A DNA stretch of 64,000 nt from NCBI GenBank assembly GCA_937996685.1, contig CALKUP010000002.1, positions 177,066 through 241,065 on the forward strand. The letters are read 5' to 3'. The notes beneath the pieces were generated by a model. That model was not told the origin of the DNA, did not search any database, and saw only the letters and a program-made list of their open reading frames with translations. Shown one piece after another: positions 1-60,350 of this stretch (the first letter of the stretch is position 1; each line of letters starts with the position of its first letter). Made by a program: the position numbers and the translations under genes. The DNA is from an uncultured bacterium (lineage in GTDB: Bacteria; Patescibacteriota; Patescibacteriia; UBA9570; XYC2-FULL-38-9).

Positions 1-1
1 G

Positions 2-193
2 CACATTGGTGCTCAGTTTGAATGCGAGGTGATGATTCGATATCGACAAACACCACAACCGGCAACAGTTACGGTTGAAGAAGGGGGAAGAATTGCAATT
101 GCGTTTCACACGCCAGAACGCGCCGTCACACCCGGTCAATCAGCAGTGTTGTATGACGGAGATGTTGTGCTTGGTGGTGGGATTATTTCGTAG
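2..193 (+). CDS. mnmA: tRNA-specific 2-thiouridylase MnmA, C-terminal fragment (gene begins upstream of window)
   Basis: Frame-2 translation ...ATVTVEEGGRIAIAFHTPERAVTPGQSAVLYDGDVVLGGGIIS* matches the conserved MnmA C-terminal beta-barrel (QRAVTPGQ...YDGD.CLGGG); stop TAG at 191-193. Confidence 0.6.
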   Translation, partial: HIGAQFECEVMIRYRQTPQPATVTVEEGGRIAIAFHTPERAVTPGQSAVLYDGDVVLGGGIIS

Positions 194-327
194 ATTTTTG
201 ATTGGTATTTTTTTGTGTCTTTCGTCCTTTTGGACTCATCAGAAAAGATGCACATCTTTTGAGGCACCATGCGAAAGAATGTGAATTCTTCCGCATGACC
301 GAAGCAGCGGTCTGCGCTGATTCGGAT

Positions 328-528
328 TTATTTTGCCGCGTGTTGTTTGCTTGCGGCTTCCTCCTCGTGTGGTTGGTCATTGGCCGGCCGGAGCTTTGTT
401 GCCGGCCAGACAGTTTTTTTGACAGGGTAGCCTTCGCAGGCTGCCTCGTTTAGTCCACCGGCAGCGCTCGGGTGCGCCTCCGGTGGAACCGGGCGAGCGT
501 CATATCCGCCTTCGTCAAATCCTGCCAT
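328..528 (-). CDS. hypothetical small protein (66 aa), GC-rich
   Basis: ATG preceded by GGAGG 6 nt upstream (plus-strand 529-540); no recognizable domain; a plus-strand terminator lies inside it, so coding status is uncertain. Confidence 0.25.
   Translation of the reverse strand: MAGFDEGGYDARPVPPEAHPSAAGGLNEAACEGYPVKKTVWPATKLRPANDQPHEEEAASKQHAAK
381..420 (+). terminator. rho-independent terminator (TGGCCGGC/GCCGGCCA stem + T7)
   Basis: 8-bp GC stem at 381-388/401-408 followed by TTTTTTT at 414-420; likely terminates the mnmA transcript. Confidence 0.55.
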
Positions 529-554
529 CTCTACCTCCTACAGGCTAGTTATCA

Positions 555-635
555 ACAGGTATGATATTTAATATATAGCCAATATTAGGTAAAAATCATA
601 CTTTAGCTTGTATAGTATGATAAAGTATGATACTT
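555..635. promoter_or_regulatory. operator-like repeat cluster upstream of the GH13 gene
   Basis: Three direct copies of GTATGATA (559-566, 614-621, 625-632) plus a 10-bp inverted repeat TCATACTTTA(596-605)/TAAAGTATGA(621-630) in the AT-rich divergent intergenic region. Confidence 0.4.
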
Positions 636-794
636 TTTTAGCGCATTTATTGTTCTTTGTCAATTAAAAAGAGATGGAGAAATTGATGTTTGTTCATCGG
701 TTTTTTATTTTAAGATCAATTCTTTCTTAAAAACACCGATCGATGAACAAGCATCGAAATCCGCCAAAATTGAGACAACGCCCTTGGAGGCACC

Positions 795-2555
795 ATGTCC
801 GCCCTTCTTCTTGCTCTCTCTTCTGTTGTGTCTTTTTCCTCCCGCGACATTCTCGCGGTTGGGGTTCCTGGTCAGACGACTCCGTTTGGTTTCGGAGCGG
901 GCACCAAGCTCACTCAAGCCCAGGGCGCTGGGCTGGAAGGCTACGCCTGGACCGAGCAGTTGCTCGCCCGGCGTTACCCTGCCGACAGGCTGGCAGTGGC
1001 GCACGCGGCCATCGCGCCGTACACTGCGCCGTTTGTTCCCGGAATCGAGACTCCTCGGCAGCTCCGCGCGAAAGTGCAGGAGCTGCAGACGCAGATCAAG
1101 GCGCCGTCGGACTGGATTCGCTCCGCGCGGATCTACGAGGTGTTGCCGCGCGCGTTCGACCCGACCAGCTTTGCTGCTCGATTCGGCCCCGGCATACCCT
1201 TGCACGGGCAGCAGGAATTGTTCACCCGCTTCATTGAGGGTGGCAACTCCTGGTTGCGAGCCTTCGCTCGAGTCATTCCGATCATCAAGGGATCGGGCTT
1301 TGACACGGTTTGGCTCCAAGAGTTGTGGCCGATGGACGGCTGGGGAGACGACGACGGGTCTCCGTACTCAGTGCGGGACTACGGGTCTATCAACCCGCGC
1401 CTCGGCACCGAAGAGGAGCTGCGTGAGCTGATCACGCTGGCTCGGTACATCGGTGTCAGCTTCATGGCTGACCTGATTCCGAACCACGTCGCGTACGACT
1501 CGTCGTTGGTTTCGGAGCGGCCGGAGATCTTCCGCCGCACCAGCTCAACGACCGCAACGGGCGAGTGCCCTGCCGACCACTTTGTGGTCAAGGACCGAGA
1601 TGACCGCGAGCGCTGGATTCAGCACGGTGGCTACACCGAAGTTGATGGCTCTCGAGTCGTCTGGGAGAAGACCGCGCAGATTGATCACGCCAGTGATCAC
1701 GGCCGCGGCTTCGTGACGGAAGTTGCGCTGCGGCTGGTCGACCTTGGCTTCGAGGCGATCCGTGTTGACATGGGCTACAGGATGCCGGACGGGCTCCTGG
1801 GCTATGTCATTGACGCGGTTCGGGCTGTGAAGCCGCGCGTCGGCTTCCTCGGCGAGTGCTGCAACGACGCGCACCGCGAGCGGCTGTCGGCAGAGGGCTT
1901 CGATGTTCTCTACTTCAAGCCGTGGTTCGATTCGATGCGGCGGCGCCAGGGCAGCCATGCCCAGGCTGCCAAGGCGATCGATCGCGCGGGCTTCCTCGCT
2001 TGGCAGCGAGGTATCGCCAGCAGCTGTGTCTACGTGACGCACCACGACGAAGCCGCGCTCCGTCGAGACTTCAAAGACATCGAGCGGCAGGTCAGCTACC
2101 TCACGCTCTTGCACCCCGGCGCCATGATTTGGTACGGGGGACAAGAGGTTTTGCATGACGCTGGCGAAAACGCTGGCGACATGCTCGACGATCGTCGCAA
2201 GGCGATTCCGTTCGGAGCACATCGAGACGCTGTCCGCATCAATTGGGGCAAATCTCCGGAGTTCGCCGCGTTCTTCAAGAACGCGTGCAACACGGCGAAC
2301 CACATCCGGGCACTCTACGGCCCCGGCTGTCGCGCTGAGCCGCTTCCGGTTCGTGGCGGACACAAGCCTGACCCGGCAGCCGGGTACTACCTCGTCAATG
2401 CGGCAGGAACCCGCGCGGCTGCGGTTCTTGTCAACTTTGACAACGAGAACGACGTGACCTTGGTCCTGGAAGACAAGACGCTGGGAGTTCTCCAGCAGGT
2501 CTACCTGAAGCCAGGTCAGTGTCGATTCGTCGAATTTGAGCTTTCTCCGAGCTGA
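795..2555 (+). CDS. glycoside hydrolase family 13 (alpha-amylase family) protein, high-GC
   Basis: GH13 regions I-IV: DLIPNHVAYDS, AIRVDMGYR, FLGECC, YVTHHDE; GGAGG SD before ATG 795; ~62% GC vs ~45% background. Confidence 0.7.
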   Translation: MSALLLALSSVVSFSSRDILAVGVPGQTTPFGFGAGTKLTQAQGAGLEGYAWTEQLLARRYPADRLAVAHAAIAPYTAPFVPGIETPRQLRAKVQELQTQIKAPSDWIRSARIYEVLPRAFDPTSFAARFGPGIPLHGQQELFTRFIEGGNSWLRAFARVIPIIKGSGFDTVWLQELWPMDGWGDDDGSPYSVRDYGSINPRLGTEEELRELITLARYIGVSFMADLIPNHVAYDSSLVSERPEIFRRTSSTTATGECPADHFVVKDRDDRERWIQHGGYTEVDGSRVVWEKTAQIDHASDHGRGFVTEVALRLVDLGFEAIRVDMGYRMPDGLLGYVIDAVRAVKPRVGFLGECCNDAHRERLSAEGFDVLYFKPWFDSMRRRQGSHAQAAKAIDRAGFLAWQRGIASSCVYVTHHDEAALRRDFKDIERQVSYLTLLHPGAMIWYGGQEVLHDAGENAGDMLDDRRKAIPFGAHRDAVRINWGKSPEFAAFFKNACNTANHIRALYGPGCRAEPLPVRGGHKPDPAAGYYLVNAAGTRAAAVLVNFDNENDVTLVLEDKTLGVLQQVYLKPGQCRFVEFELSPS

Positions 2556-13540: not shown

Positions 13541-13747
13541 CCATAGACGGCATCTCTCTTCGTGAGAGATAATTGTTTATAGAAACAACGCGTTTTTGTT
13601 TTATTGAAAATAGGTCATTCATTAGGCGCAGCGCCGTGGTCCACCCTCGACTGTGATTGCCTGATGAATGTCAGGTGTCATGAAGCGTGTAGGCGAATCG
13701 TCGCTTGTATTGCTGAATGGCAACACCGATGCAGAAAGTGGTGCTTC

Positions 13748-14761
13748 ATGCGATTCATGTGGCATGTGCTGGGATTTCTGCTGCTGTTCTCCGGCTGTTA
13801 CCATCCGCCGGATTTGCAGCTCGAAGAGGTTCCTGCTGGAGTTGAAGGAGCGGTCGAAGACGACACGGGTCAGGTCTATGACCAGGTGCCGCCGCCGATC
13901 ACCTACAACCTCCCGTTCATGAGCGGCGAGAGCTTTGTTGCTGGAACGTACGCCGGGCACGTTGCCTGGGACTTCAACAAGGCGGGAACGACTGGGAATC
14001 AGGATTGCGGTGAGCCGGTGATTGCGGTTGCGACTGGACGAGTCGAAGCGGTGAATACCGGTTGTCCGAATATCGCGGCTGGCTCTCCTGGTGCGAATAC
14101 CGGGTGTGGCGGCGGCCTCGGCAACTACGTGCGCGTTGATCACGACAGCGACAACGACGATATGATCTACGCGCATCTTCAGCAACTGAACGTCGTCAAC
14201 GGTCAGTGGATTGAAGAAGGGCAGGTGCTTGGGTTGCTCGGGACGTCCGGCAATTCATCTGCGTGCCACCTTCACTTCGAGATGCGCAACGGCAGCAACC
14301 AGGCGTACTTGCCACTGTTCATCTGGGACGGCGGTTCTGGCGGTTTGACTGACGGCGTGACGCGTCGCAGTATCAACCACCACGAAATTGACCTGGCGAA
14401 GGTGCGGCTTGGCATCGCCAATGTCGCGAACCAGACGACCACGACGGCAACGCGACTCAACAACGGCTTGGGGTACAAGCTCGAGTATCGCGGTGGCGCG
14501 TTTGGTGATTGTGCGATCTACTACGAAGCGTTGGGTTGTGTAGGCGGCAACTTCTGCCCGAGCTACAACAATACTAACTTTGCGTGGTTGACGCGCGGCG
14601 CCATTCGAGCGACGTACAATGCGATGGGTGCGACCGGTAGCTGGCTCGGATTTCCGACTGGAAACGAGTATGCGTGGAGCAATGGGCAGCGCCAGAACTT
14701 CCGCAACGGCTATCTGTACTGGAATCGTGGCACCGGCGTGACCACGGCTTTCAGTTACTGA
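13748..14761 (+). CDS. M23 family metallopeptidase (lipoprotein), high-GC
   Basis: HxxxD (GHVAWDF) and HLHFE (HxH) LytM motifs; lipobox-like LLLFSGC after ATG 13748; ~60% GC. Confidence 0.65.
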   Translation: MRFMWHVLGFLLLFSGCYHPPDLQLEEVPAGVEGAVEDDTGQVYDQVPPPITYNLPFMSGESFVAGTYAGHVAWDFNKAGTTGNQDCGEPVIAVATGRVEAVNTGCPNIAAGSPGANTGCGGGLGNYVRVDHDSDNDDMIYAHLQQLNVVNGQWIEEGQVLGLLGTSGNSSACHLHFEMRNGSNQAYLPLFIWDGGSGGLTDGVTRRSINHHEIDLAKVRLGIANVANQTTTTATRLNNGLGYKLEYRGGAFGDCAIYYEALGCVGGNFCPSYNNTNFAWLTRGAIRATYNAMGATGSWLGFPTGNEYAWSNGQRQNFRNGYLYWNRGTGVTTAFSY

Positions 14762-14869: not shown

Positions 14870-15547
14870 ATGAAAAAACAAACAGGAGGAGCGCTATTTA
14901 TTGGTATGATGAGCGCGGTTATTCTGACTGGAGCTACATGCACAGGTCCGGTTCATACAACCGGGTCATCAAGCTCTACGATAAAAAACACAGCTGTTGT
15001 TGAAGATGCTGCAGTAAAAACAGTGAAAACAACTTCAGGGAAGCTCACAATGAAGATTCCGAAAGAATGGACAGAAACAATAACGCAAAATGCTGTATCT
15101 ATTGTTGATTCAGATAACGAGGCCGTGAAACAGGGTAGCAGTGCAATTGATCCAAATGGTGTGACATTCACTGCGTCTATTCTTGATGTGTCTTCATCTG
15201 ATTATGCGCTTGGTGTGCAGAGGGCTCAAGGGGTGTATGCAACAGATCAACAGAAAGCAGATGATGAAAAAGCAGCCACAGATAGCGCAATGCCGCGACC
15301 AGTTGTGAAGAGTCTAGAAATTGCAACTATTGGGGGAAGTAAAGGATATGCATACCGTGTATACATTGAACCGAAAGAAACACCAGTGAATGAACTAAGT
15401 GATTATTTTGATGCAGTGGAGTATTATATTGAGTTGCCAGGAAAAAAGGTTTTGACGGTTTCTCAAAAAATTGGATACGGTACAGAGCATGATGTTTTGC
15501 AAACAAGATTAAAAACAGTAGTAGATTCAATTGCGGTTTCTCAGTAG
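14870..15547 (+). CDS. hypothetical lipoprotein
   Basis: Signal peptide plus lipobox LTGATC; no known domain. Confidence 0.4.
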   Translation: MKKQTGGALFIGMMSAVILTGATCTGPVHTTGSSSSTIKNTAVVEDAAVKTVKTTSGKLTMKIPKEWTETITQNAVSIVDSDNEAVKQGSSAIDPNGVTFTASILDVSSSDYALGVQRAQGVYATDQQKADDEKAATDSAMPRPVVKSLEIATIGGSKGYAYRVYIEPKETPVNELSDYFDAVEYYIELPGKKVLTVSQKIGYGTEHDVLQTRLKTVVDSIAVSQ

Positions 15548-15614
15548 TGTTGTTATTGCGTTGGATTTCGTATGCGGTTATACTAAGTCCATATTTTACA
15601 ATTTCATATTTCGT

Positions 15615-17045
15615 ATGACAAAACGTTCACTTCTTGTCGCGCTGGTATTTGCTGCGTGGCTTATTTTCCCGATGAGTACTTTTGCTGCCACTGATTCGCG
15701 CTTACCTGATTTAAATGTCTTTGATATGCGAGGCCACGGACGCACTACTGTACGACAAGAATCGTTTCGTGTCATGGATGGCAAGACAACGAATGGCGCG
15801 TCTGTTGCAATTGGAAATGTGACCGGTGATTCAAAAGAAGAAATTATCGTTGGAGCCGGTCCTGGTTCTGAGCCGTATGTGCAGGTCTATACCGCAAGCG
15901 GGAAGCGGATCGCGCAGTTTTTGGCATATGACCGTTCAATGAAAAAAGGTGTGCATGTGGCGGTTGGAAATGTGAATGCGAAAGGGTACGACGAAATCGT
16001 CACTGTTCCAGGAGAAGGCGCAGCGAGCTTGGTTCGGGTGTTTACAAGTCGTGGCAAAAAAACCATTACGAATGGATTTTATGCATTTCCGAAGACATTT
16101 ACTGGTGGCGCAACAATTGCTGTTGGAAATGTGACAGGGAGTACAAAAGCGGAAATTGTTGTCGGTAGCGGAATTGGAACAGAAGCGATTGTGCGGATTT
16201 TAAATGAAAAAGGAAAAACAGCGTATCGTACGCTCCATCCATTTGAGTCAACACATAAAGGAGGAGTGAGTGTTGCTGTAGCAAATATTGATGGTGGAGA
16301 GCAGGCAGAAATTGCGGTTGCAAAACGCTCTTTTGGTTCGCCTCAAGTGAAGACATATCGAGTGCATAAAAAAGAAGAAATTGCCGGTGACTTTTTCGCG
16401 TTTCCGCAAAGTTATCGAGGAGGTCTCAATCTTGCTGCTGCGGATGTTGACGATAATGGCTCTGAGGAGTTGATTGTGTTACCACGTCAAGACCGCACAG
16501 TATCCGCCCGTCTGTTTCGTGGAAACGGTAAAGCGGTAGGAAAAGGCTTTCAGGTCTATGAAAAACAATTTATTGGCGGTGGAATGGTTGCGGCTGGTAA
16601 TGTGGACGACGACGAAAAAATGGAAATTGTGACCGTCCCAGAAAAACGATTAGTGACTGGTCGTAGTGATTATTATAAATATATTGATGTTGATTTATCT
16701 GAGCAAAAATTACGCGCGTATCGTAATGGTGTGTTGGAAAAAGAATTCTTGGTTTCTACAGGCATCGATCGATACCCAACGCCAACTGGAACCTACCCAA
16801 TTCGTCGTAAGTTATTAAACAAAGACTATGAGTGGTCGTATGGTGAAAATCATCCAGATAATTATGACATCAAGGATGTTCCGTATAATTTGCAGTTTTT
16901 GCCAACATACTATCTCCATAATGCGTACTGGCATAATAATTTTGGACACAAAATGAGTCACGGATGCGTGAATATCAACCTAGAAAATTCAAAGTGGATT
17001 TATGAATGGGCAAATGTCGGTGATCCGGTCATTATCCATCAATAA
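15615..17045 (+). CDS. L,D-transpeptidase (YkuD domain) with about six N-terminal FG-GAP/beta-propeller-like repeats
   Basis: C-terminal catalytic motif HNAYWHNNFGHKMSHGCVN (His...Ser-x-Gly-Cys); ~50-aa repeats VAVGNV..G...EIVV; signal peptide from ATG 15615. Confidence 0.65.
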   Translation: MTKRSLLVALVFAAWLIFPMSTFAATDSRLPDLNVFDMRGHGRTTVRQESFRVMDGKTTNGASVAIGNVTGDSKEEIIVGAGPGSEPYVQVYTASGKRIAQFLAYDRSMKKGVHVAVGNVNAKGYDEIVTVPGEGAASLVRVFTSRGKKTITNGFYAFPKTFTGGATIAVGNVTGSTKAEIVVGSGIGTEAIVRILNEKGKTAYRTLHPFESTHKGGVSVAVANIDGGEQAEIAVAKRSFGSPQVKTYRVHKKEEIAGDFFAFPQSYRGGLNLAAADVDDNGSEELIVLPRQDRTVSARLFRGNGKAVGKGFQVYEKQFIGGGMVAAGNVDDDEKMEIVTVPEKRLVTGRSDYYKYIDVDLSEQKLRAYRNGVLEKEFLVSTGIDRYPTPTGTYPIRRKLLNKDYEWSYGENHPDNYDIKDVPYNLQFLPTYYLHNAYWHNNFGHKMSHGCVNINLENSKWIYEWANVGDPVIIHQ

Positions 17046-17102: not shown

Positions 17103-18812
17103 ATGACAAAAAAGACGAAATTGCGTATTACCGCACTATCCATTCTGCTGCTCGCTATTGGGGCTGGTTATCTAGCGTATCCAAAGGGACCTGCAATTAG
17201 CCTTGGTTCATTTCAACGCTCCGGAAATGTTCAACTTGGCCTTGATTTACAAGGTGGGGCGCAGTTGCTCTATCAAGCTGACATGTCAAATGTTCCAGAA
17301 GCTGATCGTACTGATTCATTAAATGGTGTGCGTGATGTTATTGAACAGCGCATTAATGCATTTGGTGTCGGCGAACCTGTAATTCAAACAGTTCGCTCGG
17401 GTAATGATTATCGCTTAAATGTTGAGCTGCCGGGTATTACAGATGTGACTGCTGCGGCGAAAAAAATTGGAGAAACCCCATTACTCGAATTTAAAACAGA
17501 AGGACCAGAAGTGGTGTATACAGAAGAGCAAAAAGCTGCAATTCGTAAACAAAACGATGAAAATAAAAAAACAGCCGAAGACGTATTAAAGCGTGTTCGT
17601 TCCGGTGAGTCATTTGATGATTTAGCGAAGCAATATTCACAAGACCCGGGATCAAAGGATGCGGGTGGTGATTTAGGTGAGGCACAAGAAGGAACCTATG
17701 TTGAGCCATTTAATGAAGTTGTTTTTAGTAAAGCAACCCCAGGCGAGGTCTATCCAGAGCTGGTTGAAACAACCTTTGGATATCATATTGTTCGGGTTGA
17801 TGAGCGCACTGAAGCTGCGACAAATGAAGTAGCTCCAGGAACTGACGCAACAAACACAGCGACAACCGAAGGAAAAAAAGCCAAGGTACATCACATTTTA
17901 CTGACAAAACAGTCTGAAGAGCCGGTGAGTACTGGTCCGAATTATGTTGCGACCAACTTGACTGGCAAACAACTTGATCGAGCATCGGTAGTTCTTGATC
18001 AAACAACAGGATTGCCAACAGTCTCATTGAATTTTGATTCAGAAGGTAAAGAGTTGTTTGCAAAAATTACAAAAGAAAACGTGAACAAAACAATTGCTAT
18101 TTACCTCGATGGGCAAATTTTGTCCGCGCCAACAGTGCAGCAAGAAATCTCAACGGGGCAGGCGATTATTTCTGGTAGCTTCTCACTTGATGAAGCCAAG
18201 CAATTAACACAGCGCTTGAATGCTGGTGCGCTACCTGTGCCAGTGTCGCTGATTAGTCAGCAGCAAGTCGGGCCAACACTGGGTCAAGAATCGATTGAAC
18301 GAAGCTTATTTGCTGGGGTTGTTGGTTTAATCGCGCTCGGTATTTTTATGATCGTCTATTATCGATTGCCAGGGCTTATTGCGATGGTTGCGTTAGTGTT
18401 GTATTCCATTCTTGTGCTTGTGGTGTTTAAATTAGTTCCAGTGACTCTCACCCTTGCTGGTATTGCTGGTTTTGTCTTGTCTATCGGAATGGCGGTTGAT
18501 GCCAATGTCTTGATTTTTGAGCGCATGAAAGAAGAGTTGCATCGCGGTAAAACAGTCAAGCAAGCAATTGACGACGGATTTGATCGAGCATGGCTGTCTA
18601 TTCGTGATTCCAATGCATCTTCTTTAATGACCTGCTTGATTTTATACTGGTTCGGTTCATCGATTATTCGCGGCTTTGCGATCACTCTTGCAATTGGTGT
18701 CCTTGTCTCAATGTTTACAGCAGTGAATATTTCTCGAACTCTCTTAAAATTATTGCCAGTGAAAAATTCTTGGTGGTTTGGTGTCGCTCCTTTCAATAAC
18801 GAAAATGACTAA
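17103..18812 (+). CDS. secD: protein translocase subunit SecD with embedded parvulin-type (PpiC) PPIase domain
   Basis: SecD N-terminal TM and LDLQGG, C-terminal 6-TM block (AVDANVLIFERMKEE); internal parvulin signature SFDDLAKQYSQDPGSKDAGGDLGE...TTFGYHIVRV. Confidence 0.75.
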   Translation: MTKKTKLRITALSILLLAIGAGYLAYPKGPAISLGSFQRSGNVQLGLDLQGGAQLLYQADMSNVPEADRTDSLNGVRDVIEQRINAFGVGEPVIQTVRSGNDYRLNVELPGITDVTAAAKKIGETPLLEFKTEGPEVVYTEEQKAAIRKQNDENKKTAEDVLKRVRSGESFDDLAKQYSQDPGSKDAGGDLGEAQEGTYVEPFNEVVFSKATPGEVYPELVETTFGYHIVRVDERTEAATNEVAPGTDATNTATTEGKKAKVHHILLTKQSEEPVSTGPNYVATNLTGKQLDRASVVLDQTTGLPTVSLNFDSEGKELFAKITKENVNKTIAIYLDGQILSAPTVQQEISTGQAIISGSFSLDEAKQLTQRLNAGALPVPVSLISQQQVGPTLGQESIERSLFAGVVGLIALGIFMIVYYRLPGLIAMVALVLYSILVLVVFKLVPVTLTLAGIAGFVLSIGMAVDANVLIFERMKEELHRGKTVKQAIDDGFDRAWLSIRDSNASSLMTCLILYWFGSSIIRGFAITLAIGVLVSMFTAVNISRTLLKLLPVKNSWWFGVAPFNNEND

Positions 18813-19761
18813 TATGAACATGTACCGATTTATCGATAAAGCAAAATATATTACAACTGTTTCGTTAATTTTGGTTGTCGCGTCATTTGGTATTTGGGGA
18901 TACAACTACGCTTCTCAAGTGCGCTCTGGTGTGACAAATCAATACGGATTTTCATTAGGGATTGATTTTACTGGAGGGTCAGTCTTGGAGCTTTCTTTTC
19001 CTGAAGGTAAGCAGCCGTCTTTAGATCAAGCGACAACGGTTCTTGAGTCGCAGGGATTAAAGGGGACAACGCAGTCTGTGAACACAAACGGACTATTGGT
19101 GCGTACATCATACATCTCTCAAGATCAACACAATGCGCTGCTGCAAGGTTTTCAAGCGCAATATGGAGCGACAGAGCAGTCATTTTCAAGCGTTGGGCCA
19201 ACACTTGGTCAAGAATTACAACGAAAAGCCTTTTTAGCAACCGGACTCGTGTTGCTCGCGATTATTTTGTATGTATCATATGCGTTTCGTGGTATTTCAT
19301 ATGGCCCAGTAAAATCATGGGTGTTCGGTTTAGGTGCAATTGTGGCGTTGATACATGATATCGTCCTTGTTCTTGGGGTCTTTGTGGTTCTTGGGATGGT
19401 CTCCGGAGTGCAAATTGATTCCTTGTTTGTGACAGCACTGCTCACTGTTCTCGGCTTTTCTGTCCATGACACCATTGTTGTGTATGATCGTATTCGTGAG
19501 AATTTAAAGCAGAAAAATAAGTATACATTTGCTGAAATTATCGATAAAAGTATCAATAGCACTTTGGCGCGCTCTCTTAACACCTCATTTACAACTTTAT
19601 TTGTCTTAACAGCCTTGTATTTCTTCGGTGGAGAGACAATTCAGCATTTCGTCCTTGCATTAATCATTGGTATTATCATTGGAACCTATTCATCAATTTT
19701 TATCGCAAGCCCTGTATTGATTCTTGGTGAGCGTATTGGAAAACGCCTCCAAAATCGATAA
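18805..19761 (+). CDS. secF: protein translocase subunit SecF
   Basis: Immediately downstream of and overlapping secD; 6 TM helices with SecF motif DTIVVYDRIREN; ATG 18805 chosen (track start is TTG 18778). Confidence 0.75.
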   Translation: MTNMNMYRFIDKAKYITTVSLILVVASFGIWGYNYASQVRSGVTNQYGFSLGIDFTGGSVLELSFPEGKQPSLDQATTVLESQGLKGTTQSVNTNGLLVRTSYISQDQHNALLQGFQAQYGATEQSFSSVGPTLGQELQRKAFLATGLVLLAIILYVSYAFRGISYGPVKSWVFGLGAIVALIHDIVLVLGVFVVLGMVSGVQIDSLFVTALLTVLGFSVHDTIVVYDRIRENLKQKNKYTFAEIIDKSINSTLARSLNTSFTTLFVLTALYFFGGETIQHFVLALIIGIIIGTYSSIFIASPVLILGERIGKRLQNR

Positions 19762-19855: not shown

Positions 19856-20971
19856 ATGACACATATGAGTAACTCTATTTTAGACACAGTCTTATCGCGC
19901 AGAGACGTCGTGGAACGACAGTCTTTTGATGCCTTGCAGCTCACTGAGCAACTTTTGGCCGTATTACCTGAAAAAGAAGCAGGTATTTTGCGGCGTCGTT
20001 ATGGATTAACTGGTGAGCGAAAACAGACTCTTGAAATGATTGGAAAAGAGTACGCTGTAACACGTGAACGGATTCGTCAGATCGAGCGTCAGTCAATTGC
20101 TGCAATTAAAGATAGTAGCGTGTTTCGTGAATCCATTCGTCCGTTTGAACACGTTGTCATGGCTGTTATTCATGAACACGGTGGCATTATGACAATGGAA
20201 ATGATTAGCCGGGAATTACTTGGCGTCCATCATTCAGACGTTAAGCATCATGCAGCGCTTCATTTTCTATTGTCTGAATTATTGAAAGATAAAATTGAAC
20301 ACGTTCGTGCGAATAAGCAGTTTTCACAAAGTTGGAAAACAAAAACAGTTTCTTTGTCACTAGTGGAACGTGCTGTCGCTGAATTACAGCGTATTATTGA
20401 AGGTCTCGAAAAACCTCATAGCTTCGAGCGTATTTTTGGCGAGTTTCAGGAGACAGATTTATATAAAGAAAACACTGATCATTTTACAGAGCAGGTGTTA
20501 ACGTCGTATTTAGACGTTGCTGGCGCTGTCGGCAAAAATCCGTTTGATGAATACGGTCTTGCGCATTGGGGCTTGGTGAATCCGAAGCGTATGCATGATC
20601 GTGTCTATTTGATTTTACAAAAAGAAGGAAAGCCGTTGCATTTTGAAGAAATTAGTCAAAAGATCACAGAGATTTTTGGCAAAAAAGCGTATCCACCAAC
20701 AGTGCATAATGAGTTGATTTTGAACGATGAGTATGTCTTGGTTGGTCGTGGTTTGTATGCCTTGAAAGAATGGGGCTATCAAGAAGGAGTTGTTTCAGAT
20801 GTCATTAGCCAAGTGCTAGAAGATGCAGCAGAGTCAATGCACCGCGATGAAATTGTAGACAAGGTGTTAGAGCAGCGCATGGTAAAAAAGAACACAATTT
20901 ATTTAGCGTTAACCGACAAAGAAGTGTTTCGTAAACACGAGGACGGTCGTTACTCACACCAGGTAGCGTAA
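19856..20971 (+). CDS. sigma-70 region-4 (HTH) domain protein with uncharacterized ~280-aa C-terminal domain
   Basis: N-terminal LPEKEAGILRRRYGL..KQTLEMIGKEYAVTRERIRQIERQSIAAIKD closely matches sigma70 region 4.2; no region 2 or 3. Confidence 0.6.
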   Translation: MTHMSNSILDTVLSRRDVVERQSFDALQLTEQLLAVLPEKEAGILRRRYGLTGERKQTLEMIGKEYAVTRERIRQIERQSIAAIKDSSVFRESIRPFEHVVMAVIHEHGGIMTMEMISRELLGVHHSDVKHHAALHFLLSELLKDKIEHVRANKQFSQSWKTKTVSLSLVERAVAELQRIIEGLEKPHSFERIFGEFQETDLYKENTDHFTEQVLTSYLDVAGAVGKNPFDEYGLAHWGLVNPKRMHDRVYLILQKEGKPLHFEEISQKITEIFGKKAYPPTVHNELILNDEYVLVGRGLYALKEWGYQEGVVSDVISQVLEDAAESMHRDEIVDKVLEQRMVKKNTIYLALTDKEVFRKHEDGRYSHQVA

Positions 20972-21020
20972 ATACTATTCGTTTGTCTGATCATTTGGTA
21001 TACTATAGACAAGTGACTTG

Positions 21021-23198
21021 ATGTCTATTCTTATGTTTGCGCAAATACAAAATTTTTTTATCACGTTTGGAAAGGAGTTGCTTGCTGCTGCGGGGCAAAG
21101 TCCGTTTTCAGCACTTGGATACATCATGACACATGGTGGTCTTGTGGTCTTTTTTCCAATGCTTGTGTGGATGTTGTGGGTGACGTGGATTTTTTATGTT
21201 ATTGGCTGGTATGTAAAAAAACAAAAATACAAGTTATTTGCAGTCGATGTTCCAAGTGTGAATGAGCAGAGCATGGCAGCTGTTGAGCAAGTGATTGTTG
21301 CATTGCACGGGACATTTTTTAATTACAATAAAAAAGATCAGTATTGGCATGGTATGCTCGTTGAGCCGTACTCGTTAGAAATTGTCAGTATTGATGGATA
21401 CATTCAATACTTTGTCTGGTGTAATGCGCGTTTTGAAAATGTTTTGAAGTCGGCAATTTATGCGCAATACCCAGATGCCGAAATTACAGAGGTTGAGGAT
21501 TACACAAAGAATGTGCCGAATGAATTTCCAAGTGATGAGTATAAAATTTGGGGAACGCAATTAGTGTTTGAAAAACCAGATGTCTACCCGATTAAGACGT
21601 ATGAATATTTTGAGCATTCATTGACTGGCACTTTTGCAGACCCACTTGCGTCGATTTTGGAGCAGATGAGCCGACTTCATGAAGGAGAGCAAGTGTGGTT
21701 GCAGTTGGTCATCACCCCAACAGACGGTGGTATCCGCAGTAGTGGTATTTCAGAGGTGGATGCATTAATTGGAAAAGATTCTGGTTATAGTCCAAAAGGA
21801 TTTGAAAAATTTATTTTTTCAACACTTGGGCGTTTGTTTAACGCAGGAAAGCCAGTGCATTTTGAAGCAGTGGAGGATACTGGCTTTGGTCGAGAGGGAA
21901 GTGATGGAAACTTCATGAGTGTTACAACTGGTGAAAAGGTTGTTATTGAAGAAATTCAAAAGAAAATTACCCGCATGCAATTTTCGGTGAAATTTCGTAT
22001 TGTCTATCTTGCAAAAACTGCGTTGTATGATCGGTATCGTGTCCCTGGCGCAATTTTTGGTGCAATTAAACAGTTCAATTCACTTGATTTAAATAGTTTC
22101 AAAGGTGGAAAACTCACGACAACTTCTGGTCCGGCGTATTTGTTTTGGCAACGCCGTCGACATATTCGAGAAACAAAATTAGTACAAGCCTATCAAGGAC
22201 GCTCCAACTGGGCGGGGAGTGACGCAATTACAATGTCGAGTGCTGAAATTGCAACATTGTTTCATTTCCCTTTAGAGTCTGCGCAAGCGCCGCTGCTTTC
22301 TACAACCGAATCGAAAAAAGCCGAACCACCAACGCGGTTGCCGCAGTCTCAGGTGTCCGATTCAATTATCGCAACAGCCAGTATGCCTGGTGATAACGAC
22401 CCTGTTGTTCCAGAAAATTTACCAATGCAAACACCAACCAAAATGCGTATCCCGCAACCCGGCGAACAACTACCACGTGCTGCGAGTATTCCAGTTGGTC
22501 CAATTGAGGAAAACTTTGTTGGTACAACTGGTCAACAGCCAGGCACAATTTCATCGCAGCTCACAAATGCGGCTGGTGAAGTGCCTCTGCATTCAATGCC
22601 AGGCCTCCCGCCGGGTGTTCGTCCGATCACTGATTCAGCGTTGCCAACGCCTGTTGCAAAGCCGGTTTCTATTCCGACTCCCGCAACAGCTCCTGCGCAA
22701 CCGCAATTTCAACCGCAGCAATGGTCTCTGAATAGTCGTGCGCAAATGGAGGTTGGTGTGAATCCAAAATCAATTATGCCGACACCGGAAGAAATTACAG
22801 ATACCGTGACGCAAGTGGCGAACGTTATTCCAGCTGTCGCCAAAAAAGTGACCCCAGAGGCTGTTATGCCGATGATTCATGCGATTACAGATCCAATTCA
22901 GCAGGCAGCGCAAGCGATTCCTGGTATTGCGCGGTCGATGTCGCCACAGCAATGGGGTGCTAGTGAGTCGCAGTCACCGCAACCGCCACAGCCTCAATTG
23001 GTGCAACAACCACAATTTCAAACAGCAATGCAACCTCAGTCAGTGCAGCAGCCACCTGAAAACACAGCAAACCGTCCAATCCCAAAACCAGTGCAACATC
23101 CAGGCATGCAAGCGCCGCCAGCACCAAATAATCCACCATCCGCTCCGCAAGCAAGTAGTAGTTCAGCTGGCGCTCCGCCGCAAAATCTGCCAATATAA
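21021..23198 (+). CDS. membrane-anchored hypothetical protein with long P/Q-rich disordered C-terminal tail
   Basis: Two N-terminal TM helices, ~400-aa globular region, then ~300 aa low-complexity P/Q/A-rich; ATG 21021 (track start TTG 21018). Confidence 0.5.
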   Translation: MSILMFAQIQNFFITFGKELLAAAGQSPFSALGYIMTHGGLVVFFPMLVWMLWVTWIFYVIGWYVKKQKYKLFAVDVPSVNEQSMAAVEQVIVALHGTFFNYNKKDQYWHGMLVEPYSLEIVSIDGYIQYFVWCNARFENVLKSAIYAQYPDAEITEVEDYTKNVPNEFPSDEYKIWGTQLVFEKPDVYPIKTYEYFEHSLTGTFADPLASILEQMSRLHEGEQVWLQLVITPTDGGIRSSGISEVDALIGKDSGYSPKGFEKFIFSTLGRLFNAGKPVHFEAVEDTGFGREGSDGNFMSVTTGEKVVIEEIQKKITRMQFSVKFRIVYLAKTALYDRYRVPGAIFGAIKQFNSLDLNSFKGGKLTTTSGPAYLFWQRRRHIRETKLVQAYQGRSNWAGSDAITMSSAEIATLFHFPLESAQAPLLSTTESKKAEPPTRLPQSQVSDSIIATASMPGDNDPVVPENLPMQTPTKMRIPQPGEQLPRAASIPVGPIEENFVGTTGQQPGTISSQLTNAAGEVPLHSMPGLPPGVRPITDSALPTPVAKPVSIPTPATAPAQPQFQPQQWSLNSRAQMEVGVNPKSIMPTPEEITDTVTQVANVIPAVAKKVTPEAVMPMIHAITDPIQQAAQAIPGIARSMSPQQWGASESQSPQPPQPQLVQQPQFQTAMQPQSVQQPPENTANRPIPKPVQHPGMQAPPAPNNPPSAPQASSSSAGAPPQNLPI

Positions 23199-57998: not shown

Positions 57999-58068
57999 GG
58001 AGCTAAAATAGCCACACATTAAAGGCGTTGACCCGGATTGACATTCGGTTTTTATTCGGTTATGATAA

Positions 58069-58917
58069 TTGTATATGAAAAAAGAAATTATAGAATCTCT
58101 TACAAATAACTTTGAATCGTACGCTAATAAAACTGATGAAGGCGTTGAATTTTGGTTGGCTCGAGATTTACAACAGTTATTAGGATATGGTAAATGGGAT
58201 AACTTTTTGAAAGTCATCGCTAAGGCAAAGATAGCCTGCGAAACAACAGGTCATGTAGTTGCCGATCATTTTGCCGACGCCGGGAAAACGATCGGCATGC
58301 CTAAAGGTGCTCAAAAAGAGATATTAGATATAATGCTTACTCGATATGCGTGCTATTTGATCGCTCAAAATGGTGATCCGCGTAAAGAAGAGGTTTCGTT
58401 CGCACAAAACTATTTTGCACTCCAAACAAGGAAGTTAGAAATCATTGAAAAAAGAATTCAGGATTCCGAGAGATTGTTAGCGCGCCATAAGTTAGTTGAA
58501 ACCGAGAAAATGCTTTCCAGTGTTATTTTTCAACAAACAGGAAGTAATAAAAATTTTGGTTTAATACGAAGTAAGGGTGATAAGGCATTATTTGGTTACA
58601 GTACAGTACAAATGAAAAATAAGCTTGGTGTTCCAAAAACAAGACCGTTGTCAGATTTTCAGCCAACAATTATTTTAAAAGCTAAAGATTTTGCGACTGA
58701 AATTACAATTTTTAATACAAAAGAAAAGGGCTTGGCCACCGAGGAAGGAATTTCTGAAGAGCATGTCACGAACAACAGAAGTGTCAGAAAAACCCTCATA
58801 TCACGTGGTATTTACCCTGAAAATCTGCCCCCAGAAGAGGACATTAAAAAGCTTGAGCGCAAAATGAAGTCTGAGGAGAAAAAGGGATTAAAGAAACCAG
58901 AGACGCTTGATGTGTAA
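58069..58917 (+). CDS. DNA-damage-inducible protein D-like (Bro-N domain) protein
   Basis: GVEFWLARDLQQLLGYGKWDNFLKVIAKAKIACE matches the DinD/Bro-N N-terminal signature. Confidence 0.5.
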   Translation: MYMKKEIIESLTNNFESYANKTDEGVEFWLARDLQQLLGYGKWDNFLKVIAKAKIACETTGHVVADHFADAGKTIGMPKGAQKEILDIMLTRYACYLIAQNGDPRKEEVSFAQNYFALQTRKLEIIEKRIQDSERLLARHKLVETEKMLSSVIFQQTGSNKNFGLIRSKGDKALFGYSTVQMKNKLGVPKTRPLSDFQPTIILKAKDFATEITIFNTKEKGLATEEGISEEHVTNNRSVRKTLISRGIYPENLPPEEDIKKLERKMKSEEKKGLKKPETLDV

Positions 58918-58950
58918 GTGTTAATTTTGAATAAGTAAAAAGATTAGATT

Positions 58951-60350
58951 ATGACAGCCCAAGAAACACAAATAATTACCTTTGATTGTAAAAACTTATT
59001 CCCAGTTTTTGAAGAGCATTTAAAAATTGAAAATAATTCACGGGTATTTTTTTTCCGCAAAATATGGGACAGGGAAAACATATTTTTTAAACCAGTTTTT
59101 TCAAGACAGTGAAGACTATGAGGTTTTTCATCTATATCCGGTAGATTACCAGATCGCATCAAATGAAAATATTATTGATTTTTTAAAAGCTGATATTTTA
59201 GTTGAGCTTCAGAAAAAACACAACGGGATTATTGAGCCTAATGATTATAGTAACTTTCTCGATCTTCAAAGGCTTTTATATGTCTGGAGCAAAGACCATG
59301 TTGTTGATATTTCCAAATTTATTGGGAGTCATGTGTCACGATTAGCATTATTAGGCAAGCCATTTAAAGATGTTGTAGATTTAACAGAGAGTTTTTTGAG
59401 CTTTAAAAAACAAATTGAATCTGGAGACAAAGGCCGTGTTGAGAATTTTTTAAAGGATTTAAAAAACAAAAAGATTTCTGAAGCTGATCCAATGAGTGAT
59501 TTGTTAAAAAGCAAAATTGAATTGGTTAAAGAAAATAAAAAAAGTGTTTTAGTACTAGATGATTTAGACAGAATAGACCCACAACATGTTTTTCGTATGC
59601 TCAACTGTTTTTCTGCTCATTTTGACTCAAGCAATAATGAGCTCCCAAATAAGTTTGGTTTTGATGTTATTGTTTTGGTTGGCGATTTTGCAAACTTAAA
59701 ATCTATTTTTCACCATATGTATGGTAGTGAAACTGATTTTAATGGTTATTTTAATAAATTCTTCTCACGTGAAATTTTTCAGTTTAATAATAATCAGATA
59801 ATTTTCGATAGCTTAAGTCAAGTTATTTCAGCTTTTCCACACCACTCAACTTACAATGATGGCTTTATTAAAAAATGGATTTATTTTTATTTTAGCAGAA
59901 CTTTTATTAAAAAATGGCTTAGATTTAAATATTATTAGCACTAGACAAATTTTAAAAGGGGTCGGCTTTAAAATTCCCAGACTTTTAAGAACGTATAATT
60001 ATCCTCAAAGTGAACGACGAGTGTTAGATATTGACATGGTTCTTGATATTTTGGAAATAATATGCGGAGGTCTAAAGATAGACCTAATTGACTTTTTAGG
60101 TAAAATAAAAAATGCACATTTCAATAATGATGATATTCGTCGATTGCGTGAGTATTATATTAAGCCACTATTAAAAAAAGCAATAAAAAATTTAACAACT
60201 CATTCAAATGTCCCAACTCGTTGGCAAGGGTATGTTATTTATTTTAATGATCAAGGTGATTTACAAAGCGTCACGCAATCTAATTCGGGATCAAAATACG
60301 AGCATTTATTCCTTGACTTGCTCATCGATCATATTAAACAAAATCGTTAA
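58951..60350 (+). pseudogene. KAP-family P-loop NTPase disrupted by two homopolymer frameshifts
   Basis: Walker A SAKYGTGKTYFL and KAP-type Walker B VLVLDDLDRIDP; reading frame shifts at T8 run (59046-59053) and at an A/T run near 59870-59900, splitting the gene into three ORFs; ~28% GC. Confidence 0.55.

What the first reader, a model, noticed from the sequence alone, without database searches (positions are those of the whole stretch)
17103..18812. SecD carrying an inserted parvulin-type peptidyl-prolyl isomerase domain
Between the first TM/periplasmic segment and the C-terminal 6-TM SecD core lies a complete PpiC/parvulin signature (SFDDLAKQYSQDPGSKDAGGDLGE...FNEVVFSKATPGEVYPELVETTFGYHIVRV). 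Canonical SecD has no PPIase. Parvulin-domain chaperones (PpiD, SurA) act at the translocon exit, so a covalent SecD-parvulin fusion would place a foldase directly on the SecDF motor.
Basis: partly seen in the sequence, partly recalled or inferred. Interest (0 to 1): 0.6.

Follow-up and report, generated by a model that had tools for sequence, protein, structure and literature searches.

The report
SecD with built-in, circularly permuted parvulin
This candidate-phyla-radiation bacterium (and hundreds of relatives) has a prolyl-isomerase folding domain, with its first strand moved to the end, built into the outward-facing part of the SecD protein-export motor, so secreted proteins probably meet a folding helper as they leave the membrane channel.

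Summary
ORF 17103-18812 (569 aa) is a bona fide SecD (TIGR01129 404 bits, cutoff 244) followed by secF. It carries a parvulin/PpiC domain (Pfam E 2e-24) between the P1-base N-part (76-132) and the P1 head (284-379). The head is kept, not replaced. It is not an artefact: at least 120 protein clusters and 18 species-level genomes of Patescibacteria (Kerfeld-, Buchanan-, Komeili-, Moranbacteria, Parcubacteria) share the same insertion site. A second family of about 690 aa carries two parvulin units. New here: the parvulin is circularly permuted. Its first strand with the first catalytic His (A-x-H264-I-L) lies after the last strand (GYH228II) and a variable low-complexity linker. Evidence: AF2 of the isolated insert (strand pLDDT ~96), a Pfam de-permutation test, covariation, and His co-loss. 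The D181-H228-H264 triad is kept in 85% of members. The same permuted parvulin occurs in free-standing PrsA-like foldases of Patescibacteria and some Acidobacteria, the likely donors. Most likely function (inferred): a foldase/holdase tethered to the proton-driven SecDF motor. This would be a covalent version of the PpiD-SecD, SurA-SecDF and Mpn444-SecD contacts. I found no paper describing the fusion or the permutation. Verdict: new variant of known kinds, moderately interesting.

The parts
17103..18812 (+). secD gene encoding the SecD-parvulin fusion (569 aa)
   Evidence: ORF; TIGR01129 404 bits vs cutoff 244.4; an identical protein P0001 is in public data on a 241 kb contig.
17109..17177 (+). 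TM1 / signal-anchor helix (residues 3-25)
   Evidence: AF2 helix H3-25, pLDDT ~90.
17328..17498 (+). P1 base, N-terminal part (SecD_1st, residues 76-132), ending in the conserved IGETPLLEFK
   Evidence: Pfam PF21760, E 4.9e-14; aligns to Thermus SecDF residues 32-~113.
17523..17810 (+). Parvulin core from alpha1 to beta4 (residues 141-236). Includes D181 (the Cys/Asp catalytic position), the GGDLG strand, F203, T223 and GYH228IV
   Evidence: Pfam Rotamase_3 E 1.9e-24. AF2 pLDDT 94-98. Foldseek matches PrsA, SurA-P2 and CsPin with rmsd 1.0-1.7 A over 72-75 columns. Residue statistics.
17811..17876 (+). Low-complexity linker (residues 237-258, ERTEAATNEVAPGTDATNTATTEG...) joining the parvulin's native C- and N-termini
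   Evidence: pLDDT 51-69. The distance between H228 and H264 ranges 15-69 aa across the family, median 24.
17877..17906 (+). Relocated parvulin strand beta1 (residues 259-268, KAKVHHILLT) carrying the first catalytic His (H264)
   Evidence: H264, I265 and L266 are at least 90% conserved. AF2 gives strand E259-268 at pLDDT ~97, and it stays a strand at ~96 when the insert is folded without any SecD residues. The Pfam profile reaches position 1 only when this segment is moved in front. Covariation links 233-236 with 258-263.
17952..18239 (+). P1 head subdomain (residues 284-379), retained
   Evidence: Pfam PF22599, E 2.4e-30, profile positions 19-114; aligns to the Thermus SecDF head; AF2 pLDDT 84-95.
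18246..18752 (+). SecD TM2-TM6 bundle (residues 382-550) with invariant D466 in GMAVDANVLIFER
   Evidence: Pfam PF02355; five AF2 helices between 394 and 550; D466 invariant in 105 sequences; aligned with AVDGNVL of Thermus SecDF.
18805..19761 (+). secF. The ATG at 18805 overlaps the secD stop codon (18810-18812). The mechanical ORF list starts it at TTG 18778
   Evidence: TIGR00966 277.6 bits vs cutoff 160. Sequence read. secF follows the fused secD in every one of the 18 related loci that extend past the end of secD.

Best explanation
The gene encodes a functional SecD subunit of the proton-driven SecDF export motor. A complete but circularly permuted parvulin-type peptidyl-prolyl isomerase domain is inserted into its periplasmic P1 domain, at the connection between base and head. 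The chain leaves the base after IGETPLLEFK and runs through parvulin helix alpha1 to strand beta4 (141-236). It crosses a disordered linker (237-258), adds the strand that is normally first (259-268, with His264) next to beta4, and then continues into an intact P1 head and the TM bundle. Shown: the architecture, the permutation, its conservation, and retention of the active-site set (D181, T223, H228, H264, with the pocket positions L191, Y199 (Met in most relatives) and F203). Inferred: the domain sits at the extracytoplasmic exit of the Sec channel, on or beside the swinging P1 head that grips emerging chains. There it binds those chains and catalyses prolyl isomerisation or holds them, replacing or supplementing a free PrsA/PpiD-type foldase in these small-genome, outer-membrane-less bacteria. 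The donor was most likely the lineage's own PrsA-like foldase, which has the same permuted parvulin.
For: SecD identity and insertion site. Intact motor: D466 is invariant, and secF is adjacent and overlaps the secD stop codon. Conservation of the fusion: all 120 best homologues down to 52% identity share the domain set. 18 species-level genome representatives of Buchanan-, Kerfeld-, Moran- and Komeilibacteria and Parcubacteria have a colinear fusion, and 17 of 18 keep D-H-H. Permutation: Pfam and all PDB parvulins match only from their position ~8-29 (Pfam) or residue ~13 (PDB) onward. The conserved A-x-H-I-L follows a variable linker. AF2 of the isolated insert gives pLDDT 91.5 and pTM 0.83, and strand 126-135 (protein 259-268) stays at pLDDT ~96 with no SecD residues present. 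The de-permuted construct extends the Rotamase match to profile position 1 and raises Rotamase_3 from 88.6-88.7 to 96.0 bits, while shuffled-strand and native-upstream controls do not. Among 7,521 column pairs, ranks 2, 4, 5 and 18 link 233-236 with 258-263 in antiparallel order with charge swaps. All 3 sequences that lost H228 also lost H264. Active site: D181 in 93/105, H228 in 102/105, H264 in 99/105, full triad in 89/105. Parvulin fold. Donor candidates with the same permuted order: Saccharibacteria L019 (55% identical core), Magasanikbacteria L077 and its family (106/120 permuted by motif, D-H-H in 110/120), and Acidobacteria L020, L025, L032, L058, L067. Functional context from papers: PpiD contacts the SecD periplasmic domain (PMC9643414). 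SurA parvulin domains are predicted to bind the SecDF P1 head, and SurA binds the holo-translocon (PMC9987972). The Mycoplasma parvulin lipoprotein Mpn444 crosslinks to SecD and has PPIase activity (bioRxiv 10.1101/2024.09.05.611430). The P1-head cavity contacts precursor proteins (PMC5974789).
Against: No activity data exist, and the function is inferred from domain identity and location. A subclade has Gly at the Asp/Cys position (12/105) and a few have Gln at His264, so catalysis is not universally required. PpiD and SurA-P1 show that parvulin domains at the translocon can be catalytically inert. The full-length AF2 model has pTM 0.52, so the position of the parvulin relative to head, base and SecY is not defined. 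I could not read model coordinates, so the beta4-beta1 pairing is inferred from DSSP and pLDDT, the Pfam test and covariation, not from measured contacts. Covariation and co-loss counts are not corrected for phylogeny. I could not test whether fusion-bearing genomes lack a separate PrsA-like gene; none is in this 64 kb window.
Confidence: 0.7

Rival explanations
1. The inserted parvulin is a non-catalytic module, like the parvulin domain of PpiD or the P1 domain of SurA. It would only bind unfolded chains (holdase), or it would act as a structural or regulatory element that changes the swing of the P1 head. Prolyl isomerisation would play no role.
For: 12/105 members have Gly instead of Asp181 and 6/105 lack His264. 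In the two-parvulin family the first unit never has the beta4 His. The functional importance of PpiD's parvulin domain has been questioned (PMC9643414). The insertion is at the base-to-head connection, where it could affect head movement.
Against: The full D-H-H triad with T223, L191 and F203 is kept in 85% of single-insert members, in 17/18 species representatives, and in this window's protein. In the double family one unit keeps both His in 120/120. Such purifying selection on active-site positions is not seen in PpiD-type inert domains.
Confidence: 0.22
2. The parvulin serves something other than general secretion. It might dock a specific partner or substrate class (for example pilins, S-layer or cell-wall enzymes encoded nearby), or isomerise a proline in SecD/SecF itself as a conformational switch.
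For: Cell-wall enzymes lie directly upstream (M23 peptidase, YkuD L,D-transpeptidase). There is no direct evidence for this reading.
Against: The upstream neighbours were not checked in the related loci, whereas the secD-secF pair is conserved in them. The domain's closest relatives are general PrsA-like foldases.
Confidence: 0.06
3. Artefact: a chimeric assembly, a frameshift joining two genes, or chance similarity of ordinary P1 sequence to parvulins.
For: None found.
Against: Pfam E-values of 1e-20 to 1e-24. The same colinear architecture appears in at least 240 protein clusters from NCBI, JGI, ENA and Logan assemblies and in 20 genome loci. The insert folds confidently as a parvulin.
Confidence: 0.01

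Closest known systems
SecDF of Thermus thermophilus / Deinococcus / E. coli (PDB 3AQP, 5YHF, 5XAN, 5MG3)
   Same: Same family and fold: TM1, P1 base, P1 head, five more TM helices, conserved TM4 Asp, adjacent SecF. Foldseek E 8e-24, 26-30% identity.
   Different: The canonical proteins have only about 45 residues between the LEFR strand and the head. Here about 150 residues, forming a whole parvulin domain, occupy that connection.
PrsA foldase of Bacillus/Listeria (PDB 4WO7, 6VJ4, 5HTF), the membrane-anchored parvulin of monoderm bacteria
   Same: Closest solved parvulin domains (E 1e-14; rmsd 1.0 A over 74 columns, 38% identity). Asp at the Cys/Asp position. Non-phospho-specific type. Extracytoplasmic location at the membrane.
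   Different: PrsA is a lipoprotein whose parvulin sits inside a dimeric NC chaperone domain and has the canonical strand order. Here there is no NC/SurA_N domain, the host is SecD, and the strand order is permuted.
PpiD-YfgM at the E. coli SecYEG translocon
   Same: A membrane-tethered parvulin protein positioned over the Sec exit. [quoted passage not shown]
   Different: PpiD is a separate polypeptide with its own TM anchor, and its parvulin is catalytically inactive. Here the link to SecD is covalent and the active-site residues are kept.
SurA binding to the holo-translocon
   Same: SurA's parvulin domains are predicted to dock on the SecDF P1 head (PMC9987972). That is the same pair of domains that are neighbours in this fusion.
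   Different: SurA is soluble, serves outer-membrane protein delivery in diderms, and binds transiently.
Mycoplasma pneumoniae Mpn444/Mpn436 parvulin lipoproteins
   Same: A minimal-genome, wall-less or monoderm setting. A parvulin foldase crosslinks to SecD and is modelled over the translocon (bioRxiv 10.1101/2024.09.05.611430).
   Different: These are separate, very large lipoproteins forming trimers, not an insertion in SecD.
Free-standing PrsA-like foldases of Patescibacteria and some Acidobacteria (L019, L077, L020 and others; annotated only as 'peptidylprolyl isomerase')
   Same: The same circularly permuted parvulin (alpha1..GYHII - linker - xRHIL), up to 55% identical in the core.
   Different: Their parvulin is embedded in a SurA_N-type or long helical chaperone region behind an N-terminal TM anchor, not in SecD.

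Membership tests
SecD (protein translocase subunit SecD, TIGR01129 / RND superfamily) | Family HMM score above the curated cutoff | tested here: met
   TIGR01129 scores 404 bits vs cutoff 244.4, covering model positions 1-397.
SecD (protein translocase subunit SecD, TIGR01129 / RND superfamily) | Topology: TM1, large periplasmic P1 domain with base and head, then five TM helices | tested here: met
   Pfam SecD_1st, SecDF_P1_head and SecD_SecF_C; AF2 helices and strands; Foldseek hit to 3AQP, 5XAN and 5YHF.
SecD (protein translocase subunit SecD, TIGR01129 / RND superfamily) | Conserved TM4 aspartate of the proton path (Thermus ..AVDGNVL..) | tested here: met
   D466 in GMAVDANVLIFER is invariant in 105 sequences and aligns to the Thermus motif.
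SecD (protein translocase subunit SecD, TIGR01129 / RND superfamily) | Partner SecF encoded next to it (or fused) | tested here: met
   secF at 18805-19761, TIGR00966 277.6 bits; the same gene order in 18 related loci.
SecD (protein translocase subunit SecD, TIGR01129 / RND superfamily) | Proton-motive-force-dependent stimulation of protein export | not testable with these tools
   Needs biochemistry or genetics.
Parvulin-type PPIase (Pfam Rotamase PF00639 / PF13616) | Family HMM score above the gathering cutoff | tested here: met
   86.9 bits vs 22.5 and 72.3 bits vs 21.7.
Parvulin-type PPIase (Pfam Rotamase PF00639 / PF13616) | Parvulin fold (four-stranded antiparallel sheet packed by helices) | tested here: met
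   AF2 of the insert gives pLDDT 91.5. Foldseek probability 1.0 to PrsA, SurA-P2 and CsPin, rmsd 1.0-1.7 A.
Parvulin-type PPIase (Pfam Rotamase PF00639 / PF13616) | Canonical order of elements beta1-alpha1-alpha2-alpha3-beta2-alpha4-beta3-beta4 | tested here: not met
   beta1 lies after beta4. The domain is therefore a circularly permuted variant of the family, not a canonical member.
Parvulin-type PPIase (Pfam Rotamase PF00639 / PF13616) | Active-site set: two His, Cys/Asp, Thr/Ser, and hydrophobic proline pocket (Pin1 H59, H157, C113, T152, L122, M130, F134) | tested here: met
   H264, H228, D181, T223, L191, Y199 (Met in most relatives) and F203. Triad present in 89/105 members. The mapping to Pin1/Par10 numbering is from my own knowledge of those sequences.
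Parvulin-type PPIase (Pfam Rotamase PF00639 / PF13616) | Measured cis-trans isomerase activity | not testable with these tools
   Needs an enzyme assay.
PrsA / SurA / PpiD chaperone family | Parvulin embedded in a SurA_N-type (NC) chaperone domain | tested here: not met
   No SurA_N or NC-domain hit in the window protein, whereas L077 and L041 have one. So this protein may work like PrsA/PpiD, but it is not a member.

The most novel reading that the evidence does not exclude
Proton-driven translocation and catalysed folding are mechanically coupled in one polypeptide. Each swing of the SecD P1 head would hand the emerging chain to a prolyl isomerase mounted on the head's own hinge. That isomerase belongs to a previously undescribed, circularly permuted topological class of parvulins, which would be the standard extracytoplasmic foldase of Patescibacteria (free-standing, single-inserted or double-inserted in SecD) and of some Acidobacteria. 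If so, the fusion is natural 'Rosetta stone' evidence that parvulin chaperones (PpiD, SurA, PrsA, Mpn444) work through SecDF in bacteria generally.
Probability: 0.35. Interest if true: 0.75.

Novelty: new variant of a known kind. Interest (0 to 1): 0.58.

Why it matters
How proteins leaving SecYEG are passed to extracytoplasmic folding helpers is still debated. Contacts between SecDF and the parvulin chaperones PpiD, SurA and Mpn444 have so far been shown only by crosslinking, low-resolution EM or AlphaFold models. A conserved covalent fusion of the two partners, in a large bacterial radiation with minimal genomes, is independent evolutionary evidence that they act together. It also provides a compact natural construct (P1 base + parvulin + head) for structural and single-molecule work on the hand-over. 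The circular permutation adds a new topology to a well-studied enzyme fold. It also explains why profile searches report these domains as N-terminally truncated, and public records name these proteins only 'SecD' or 'peptidylprolyl isomerase'.

Tried and rejected
(1) Chance similarity, frameshift or chimera: rejected.

(2) 'Parvulin replaces the P1 head': rejected, because the head is present.

(3) Foldseek of the full-length model against the PDB returned only SecDF and RND pumps in the top 50, which says nothing about the insert. I therefore folded the insert alone.

(5) I searched the 50%-identity representative library with the insert. Multi-parvulin proteins dominated the top 150 and only 2 were SecD (P0342, P0382), so it gave no useful count of fusions.

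(6) An NJ tree of the 82-column parvulin core did not resolve the SecD inserts as a clade. Single versus multiple origin cannot be decided from the domain alone. The identical insertion site is what argues for one origin.

(7) I first read the two-parvulin SecDs as showing joint loss of both His in unit 1 and the last strand. With 120 sequences and the correct register, the last strand keeps His in 55/120, so that argument is weak and nested versus serial arrangement stays open.

(8) Organism name: the identical protein P0001 carries no name, and the exact-match contig look-up found nothing. The nearest named relatives are Kerfeldbacteria / 'Patescibacteria group'.

(9) Literature searches for SecD + parvulin/PPIase fusion and for parvulin + circular permutation found nothing relevant. 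The library lacks most subscription-journal papers, so absence is not proof.

(10) Rfam and tRNA scans of the window found only one tRNA-Thr.
Full report
**1. The observation**

The ORF listing gives one uninterrupted ORF at exactly 17103..18812 (+), 569 aa. A SecF-like ORF follows it.

- Pfam places the domains in this order: Sec_GG 44-62, SecD_1st 76-132, Rotamase_3/Rotamase 143-240 (E 1.9e-24 and 6.9e-20), SecDF_P1_head 284-379 (E 2.4e-30), SecD_SecF_C 382-550.
- NCBIfam TIGR01129 (secD) scores 404 bits against a cutoff of 244.4. The 397-position model is spread over 504 residues, so about 107 residues are extra. PrsA/PpiC models hit 139-261.
- Against PDB sequences, Thermus SecDF (3AQP) aligns to residues 42-156 and 267-551. 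PrsA, PpiC, Par14, SurA and Pin1 align to 141-241.
- The next gene is SecF (TIGR00966 277.6 bits). Its ATG at 18805 overlaps the secD stop codon at 18810-18812.

The parvulin lies between the P1 base and the P1 head, and the head is kept.

**2. Not an artefact, and how widespread**

- All 120 best database homologues (52-100% identity) carry the same Pfam set: SecD_1st + Rotamase + P1_head + SecD_SecF_C. They come from NCBI, JGI, ENA and Logan assemblies. Where named, they are called only 'protein translocase subunit SecD' of Kerfeldbacteria or 'Patescibacteria group'.
- I scanned one genome per GTDB species with an alignment of the junction and insert. This returned 20 loci with colinear SecD-parvulin genes, from Buchananbacteria, Kerfeldbacteria, Moranbacteria, Komeilibacteria and Parcubacteria. 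A few bins are labelled Gammaproteobacteria or Bdellovibrionales, which I suspect are mislabels.
- secF follows in all 18 loci that extend past the end of secD.
- A second family of about 661-740 aa carries two parvulin units at the same site: L059, L073 and at least 120 further clusters, named Parcubacteria or Falkowbacteria.
Its closest named relatives are Kerfeldbacteria.

**3. The parvulin is circularly permuted**

Pfam and every PDB parvulin match the insert only from profile position ~8-29 (Pfam) or chain residue ~13 (PDB). The first strand, which carries the first active-site His, is missing on the N-terminal side. In family alignments, the last strand (G226-Y-H228-I-I) is followed by a low-complexity linker. 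That linker puts 15-69 residues between the two His. After it comes a conserved A-x-H264-I265-L266, which is the parvulin beta1 consensus.

Five lines of evidence support a real permutation:

- **(a) Full-length AF2** (105-sequence alignment, pLDDT 85.8). The parvulin core 140-236 has pLDDT 94-98, the linker 51-69, and there is a strand at 259-268 with pLDDT ~97.
- **(b) AF2 of residues 134-276 alone**, with no SecD strands. The model has pLDDT 91.5 and pTM 0.83, and the same segment is still a 10-residue strand at pLDDT ~96. Its pairing partner must therefore lie inside the parvulin. Foldseek matches this model to PrsA, SurA-P2 and CsPin at rmsd 1.0-1.7 A. Only 72-75 columns align, as expected if beta1 is out of order.
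- **(c) A synthetic re-ordering** that places 253-274 in front of 138-240. The Pfam Rotamase match then starts at profile position 1, and Rotamase_3 rises from 88.6-88.7 to 96.0 bits. A shuffled strand and the native upstream SecD strand do not have this effect.
- **(d) Covariation** (MI-APC) over 264 permuted parvulins (Neff ~180). Of 7,521 column pairs, ranks 2, 4, 5 and 18 link 233-236 with 258-263 in antiparallel order. The patterns are charge swaps (for example K/R-E versus E-K at 235/258), with almost no gap cells.
- **(e) Co-loss of the two His.** The three sequences that lost H228 are all among the few that lost H264.

Caveats: I could not read atomic coordinates, and (d) and (e) are not corrected for phylogeny.

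**4. Active site**

Mapping onto Pin1/Par10 rests on my own knowledge of those sequences. The mapping is H264 = Pin1 H59, D181 = C113 (Asp as in PrsA/Par14), T223 = T152, H228 = H157, and L191/Y199/F203 = the proline pocket.

- Over 105 single-insert members: D181 in 93 (Gly in 12), H228 in 102, H264 in 99, all three together in 89.
- In 18 species representatives, 17 keep the triad.
- One subclade (P0071, P0077, P0093, P0101, P0102, P0118) has Gly at 181, and two of its members (P0102, P0118) also have Gln at 264.

Catalysis is therefore probably the norm, but it is not universal.

**5. Where the domain came from**

Several non-SecD proteins found in the same scan show the identical permuted order:

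- TM-anchored PrsA-like foldases of Saccharibacteria (L019, 55% identical core, the nearest non-SecD relative).
- Magasanikbacteria (L077, SurA_N + Rotamase).
- A set of Acidobacteria proteins (L020, L025, L032, L058, L067).

The L077 family has at least 120 clusters. Of these, 106 show 'no beta1 before, beta1 after' by motif, and 110 keep D-H-H. Canonical-order relatives also exist (L041, L034). The likely donor of the SecD insert is thus the radiation's own PrsA-like foldase. An NJ tree of the short core could not resolve this further.

**6. Mechanism (inferred)**

SecDF is a proton-driven motor whose P1 head swings between membrane-facing and upright positions. The head's cavity contacts precursor proteins leaving SecYEG (PMC5974789). 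Three published findings link parvulin chaperones to SecD:

- PpiD contacts the SecD periplasmic domain and cooperates with SecDF (PMC9643414).
- SurA binds the holo-translocon, and its parvulin domains are predicted to dock on the P1 head (PMC9987972).
- In Mycoplasma, the active parvulin lipoprotein Mpn444 crosslinks to SecD (bioRxiv 10.1101/2024.09.05.611430).

In the fusion, the motor residues are intact (D466 invariant), the head is intact, and the parvulin hangs on the base-to-head connection by two short segments. The most economical reading is a foldase/holdase tethered where chains emerge. It would replace or supplement a free PrsA/PpiD in small-genome bacteria thought to lack an outer membrane.

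Main rival: the domain is a non-catalytic binding or regulatory module. Support for this comes from the D181G subclade and the always-degenerate first unit of the double family. The relative orientation of the domains is not defined (pTM 0.52).

**7. The two-parvulin variant**

Over 120 members, unit 1 never has the beta4 His (Glu in 88). The following A[SA]H[LI]L strand and the unit-2 GYH are His in 120/120. The final strand before the head reads [SR][HR]I[FL]I, with His in 55 and Arg in 37.

Two arrangements are possible. Either a canonical unit is nested in the beta4-beta1 linker of a permuted, degenerate unit, or two permuted units lie in series. The window's insert aligns to either half.

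**8. Comparison and novelty**

The protein is a member of SecD (all testable features met). It carries a parvulin that meets the family's HMM, fold and active-site criteria but fails the canonical element order. It is not a PrsA/SurA/PpiD family member, because it has no NC/SurA_N domain, although it probably works like them.

Full-text searches found no paper on a SecD-PPIase fusion or on a permuted parvulin. The library is incomplete, and the domain architecture is visible in precomputed Pfam annotations.

I rate it a new variant of known kinds, with interest about 0.58. It is not a new system. It is a clean natural fusion that bears on an open question in protein export, and it adds an apparently undescribed fold permutation.

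Noticed in passing
L059:5578-7656 (Parcubacteria MAG JAGLYP010000026.1), L073:5459-7030 (cut); proteins P0391-P0510: A large sister family of SecD proteins (661-740 aa) carries two parvulin units at the same insertion site. Unit 1 is always degenerate (Glu/Asp instead of the beta4 His). Unit 2 keeps both His in 120/120. Nested versus serial arrangement is not resolved.
   Followed up: partly
L019:5296-6399, L077:5449-6513, L020:5191-6591, L025:4984-6564, L032:5224-6639, L058:5176-6630, L067:4967-6496; proteins P0121-P0240: Free-standing, TM-anchored PrsA/PpiD-like foldases of Saccharibacteria, Magasanikbacteria and Pyrinomonadaceae/Blastocatellia have the same circularly permuted parvulin (GYHII - low-complexity linker - xRHIL, with no HIL strand before alpha1). 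Databases call them only 'peptidylprolyl isomerase' or hypothetical.
   Followed up: partly
window 17103-18812; homologues P0071, P0077, P0093, P0101, P0102, P0118: A subclade of the single-insert fusion has Gly at the catalytic Asp/Cys position (SEGPS/SEGSS), and two of its members (P0102, P0118) also have Gln instead of His264. This suggests loss of isomerase activity with the domain retained.
   Followed up: partly
window 13604-14761 and 15531-17045 (+): Directly upstream of secD lie two cell-wall enzymes: an M23 peptidase with an LGFP repeat, and a 504-aa protein with FG-GAP-like repeats plus a YkuD L,D-transpeptidase domain. ORF 14870-15547 between them has no Pfam hit.
   Followed up: no
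window 19856-20971 (+): Downstream of secF is a 371-aa protein with a sigma-70 region 4 domain at its N-terminus and a weak HARE-HTH match. This is an unusual architecture for a sigma-like factor.
   Followed up: no
window 21018-23198 (+): A 726-aa ORF with no Pfam family. It has hydrophobic N-terminal segments and a long Pro/Gln-rich low-complexity C-terminal half.
   Followed up: no
L001, L005, L007, L012, L015, L073: These loci come from third-party (TPA) bins labelled 'uncultured Gammaproteobacteria' or 'Bdellovibrionales', yet encode Patescibacteria-type SecD-parvulin fusions (L001-L015: 47-56% identical to the window protein over nearly its full length; L073: ~40%, two-parvulin type). 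The taxonomic labels are probably wrong.
   Followed up: no
PDB 8HM4/8HM3 (Bacteroides fragilis PPIase) vs model m3470bdb2046d: This solved PPIase aligned with the isolated insert over 122 columns (rmsd 2.5 A for chain A). That is much longer than the 72-75 columns of other parvulins. It may include the long alpha1 helix or a following strand, and is worth checking for a related topology.
   Followed up: no
window 1-2000 and 58001-60000: Base composition departs from the window's ~0.40-0.48 GC: 0.563 in the first 2 kb and 0.327 at 58-60 kb.
   Followed up: no
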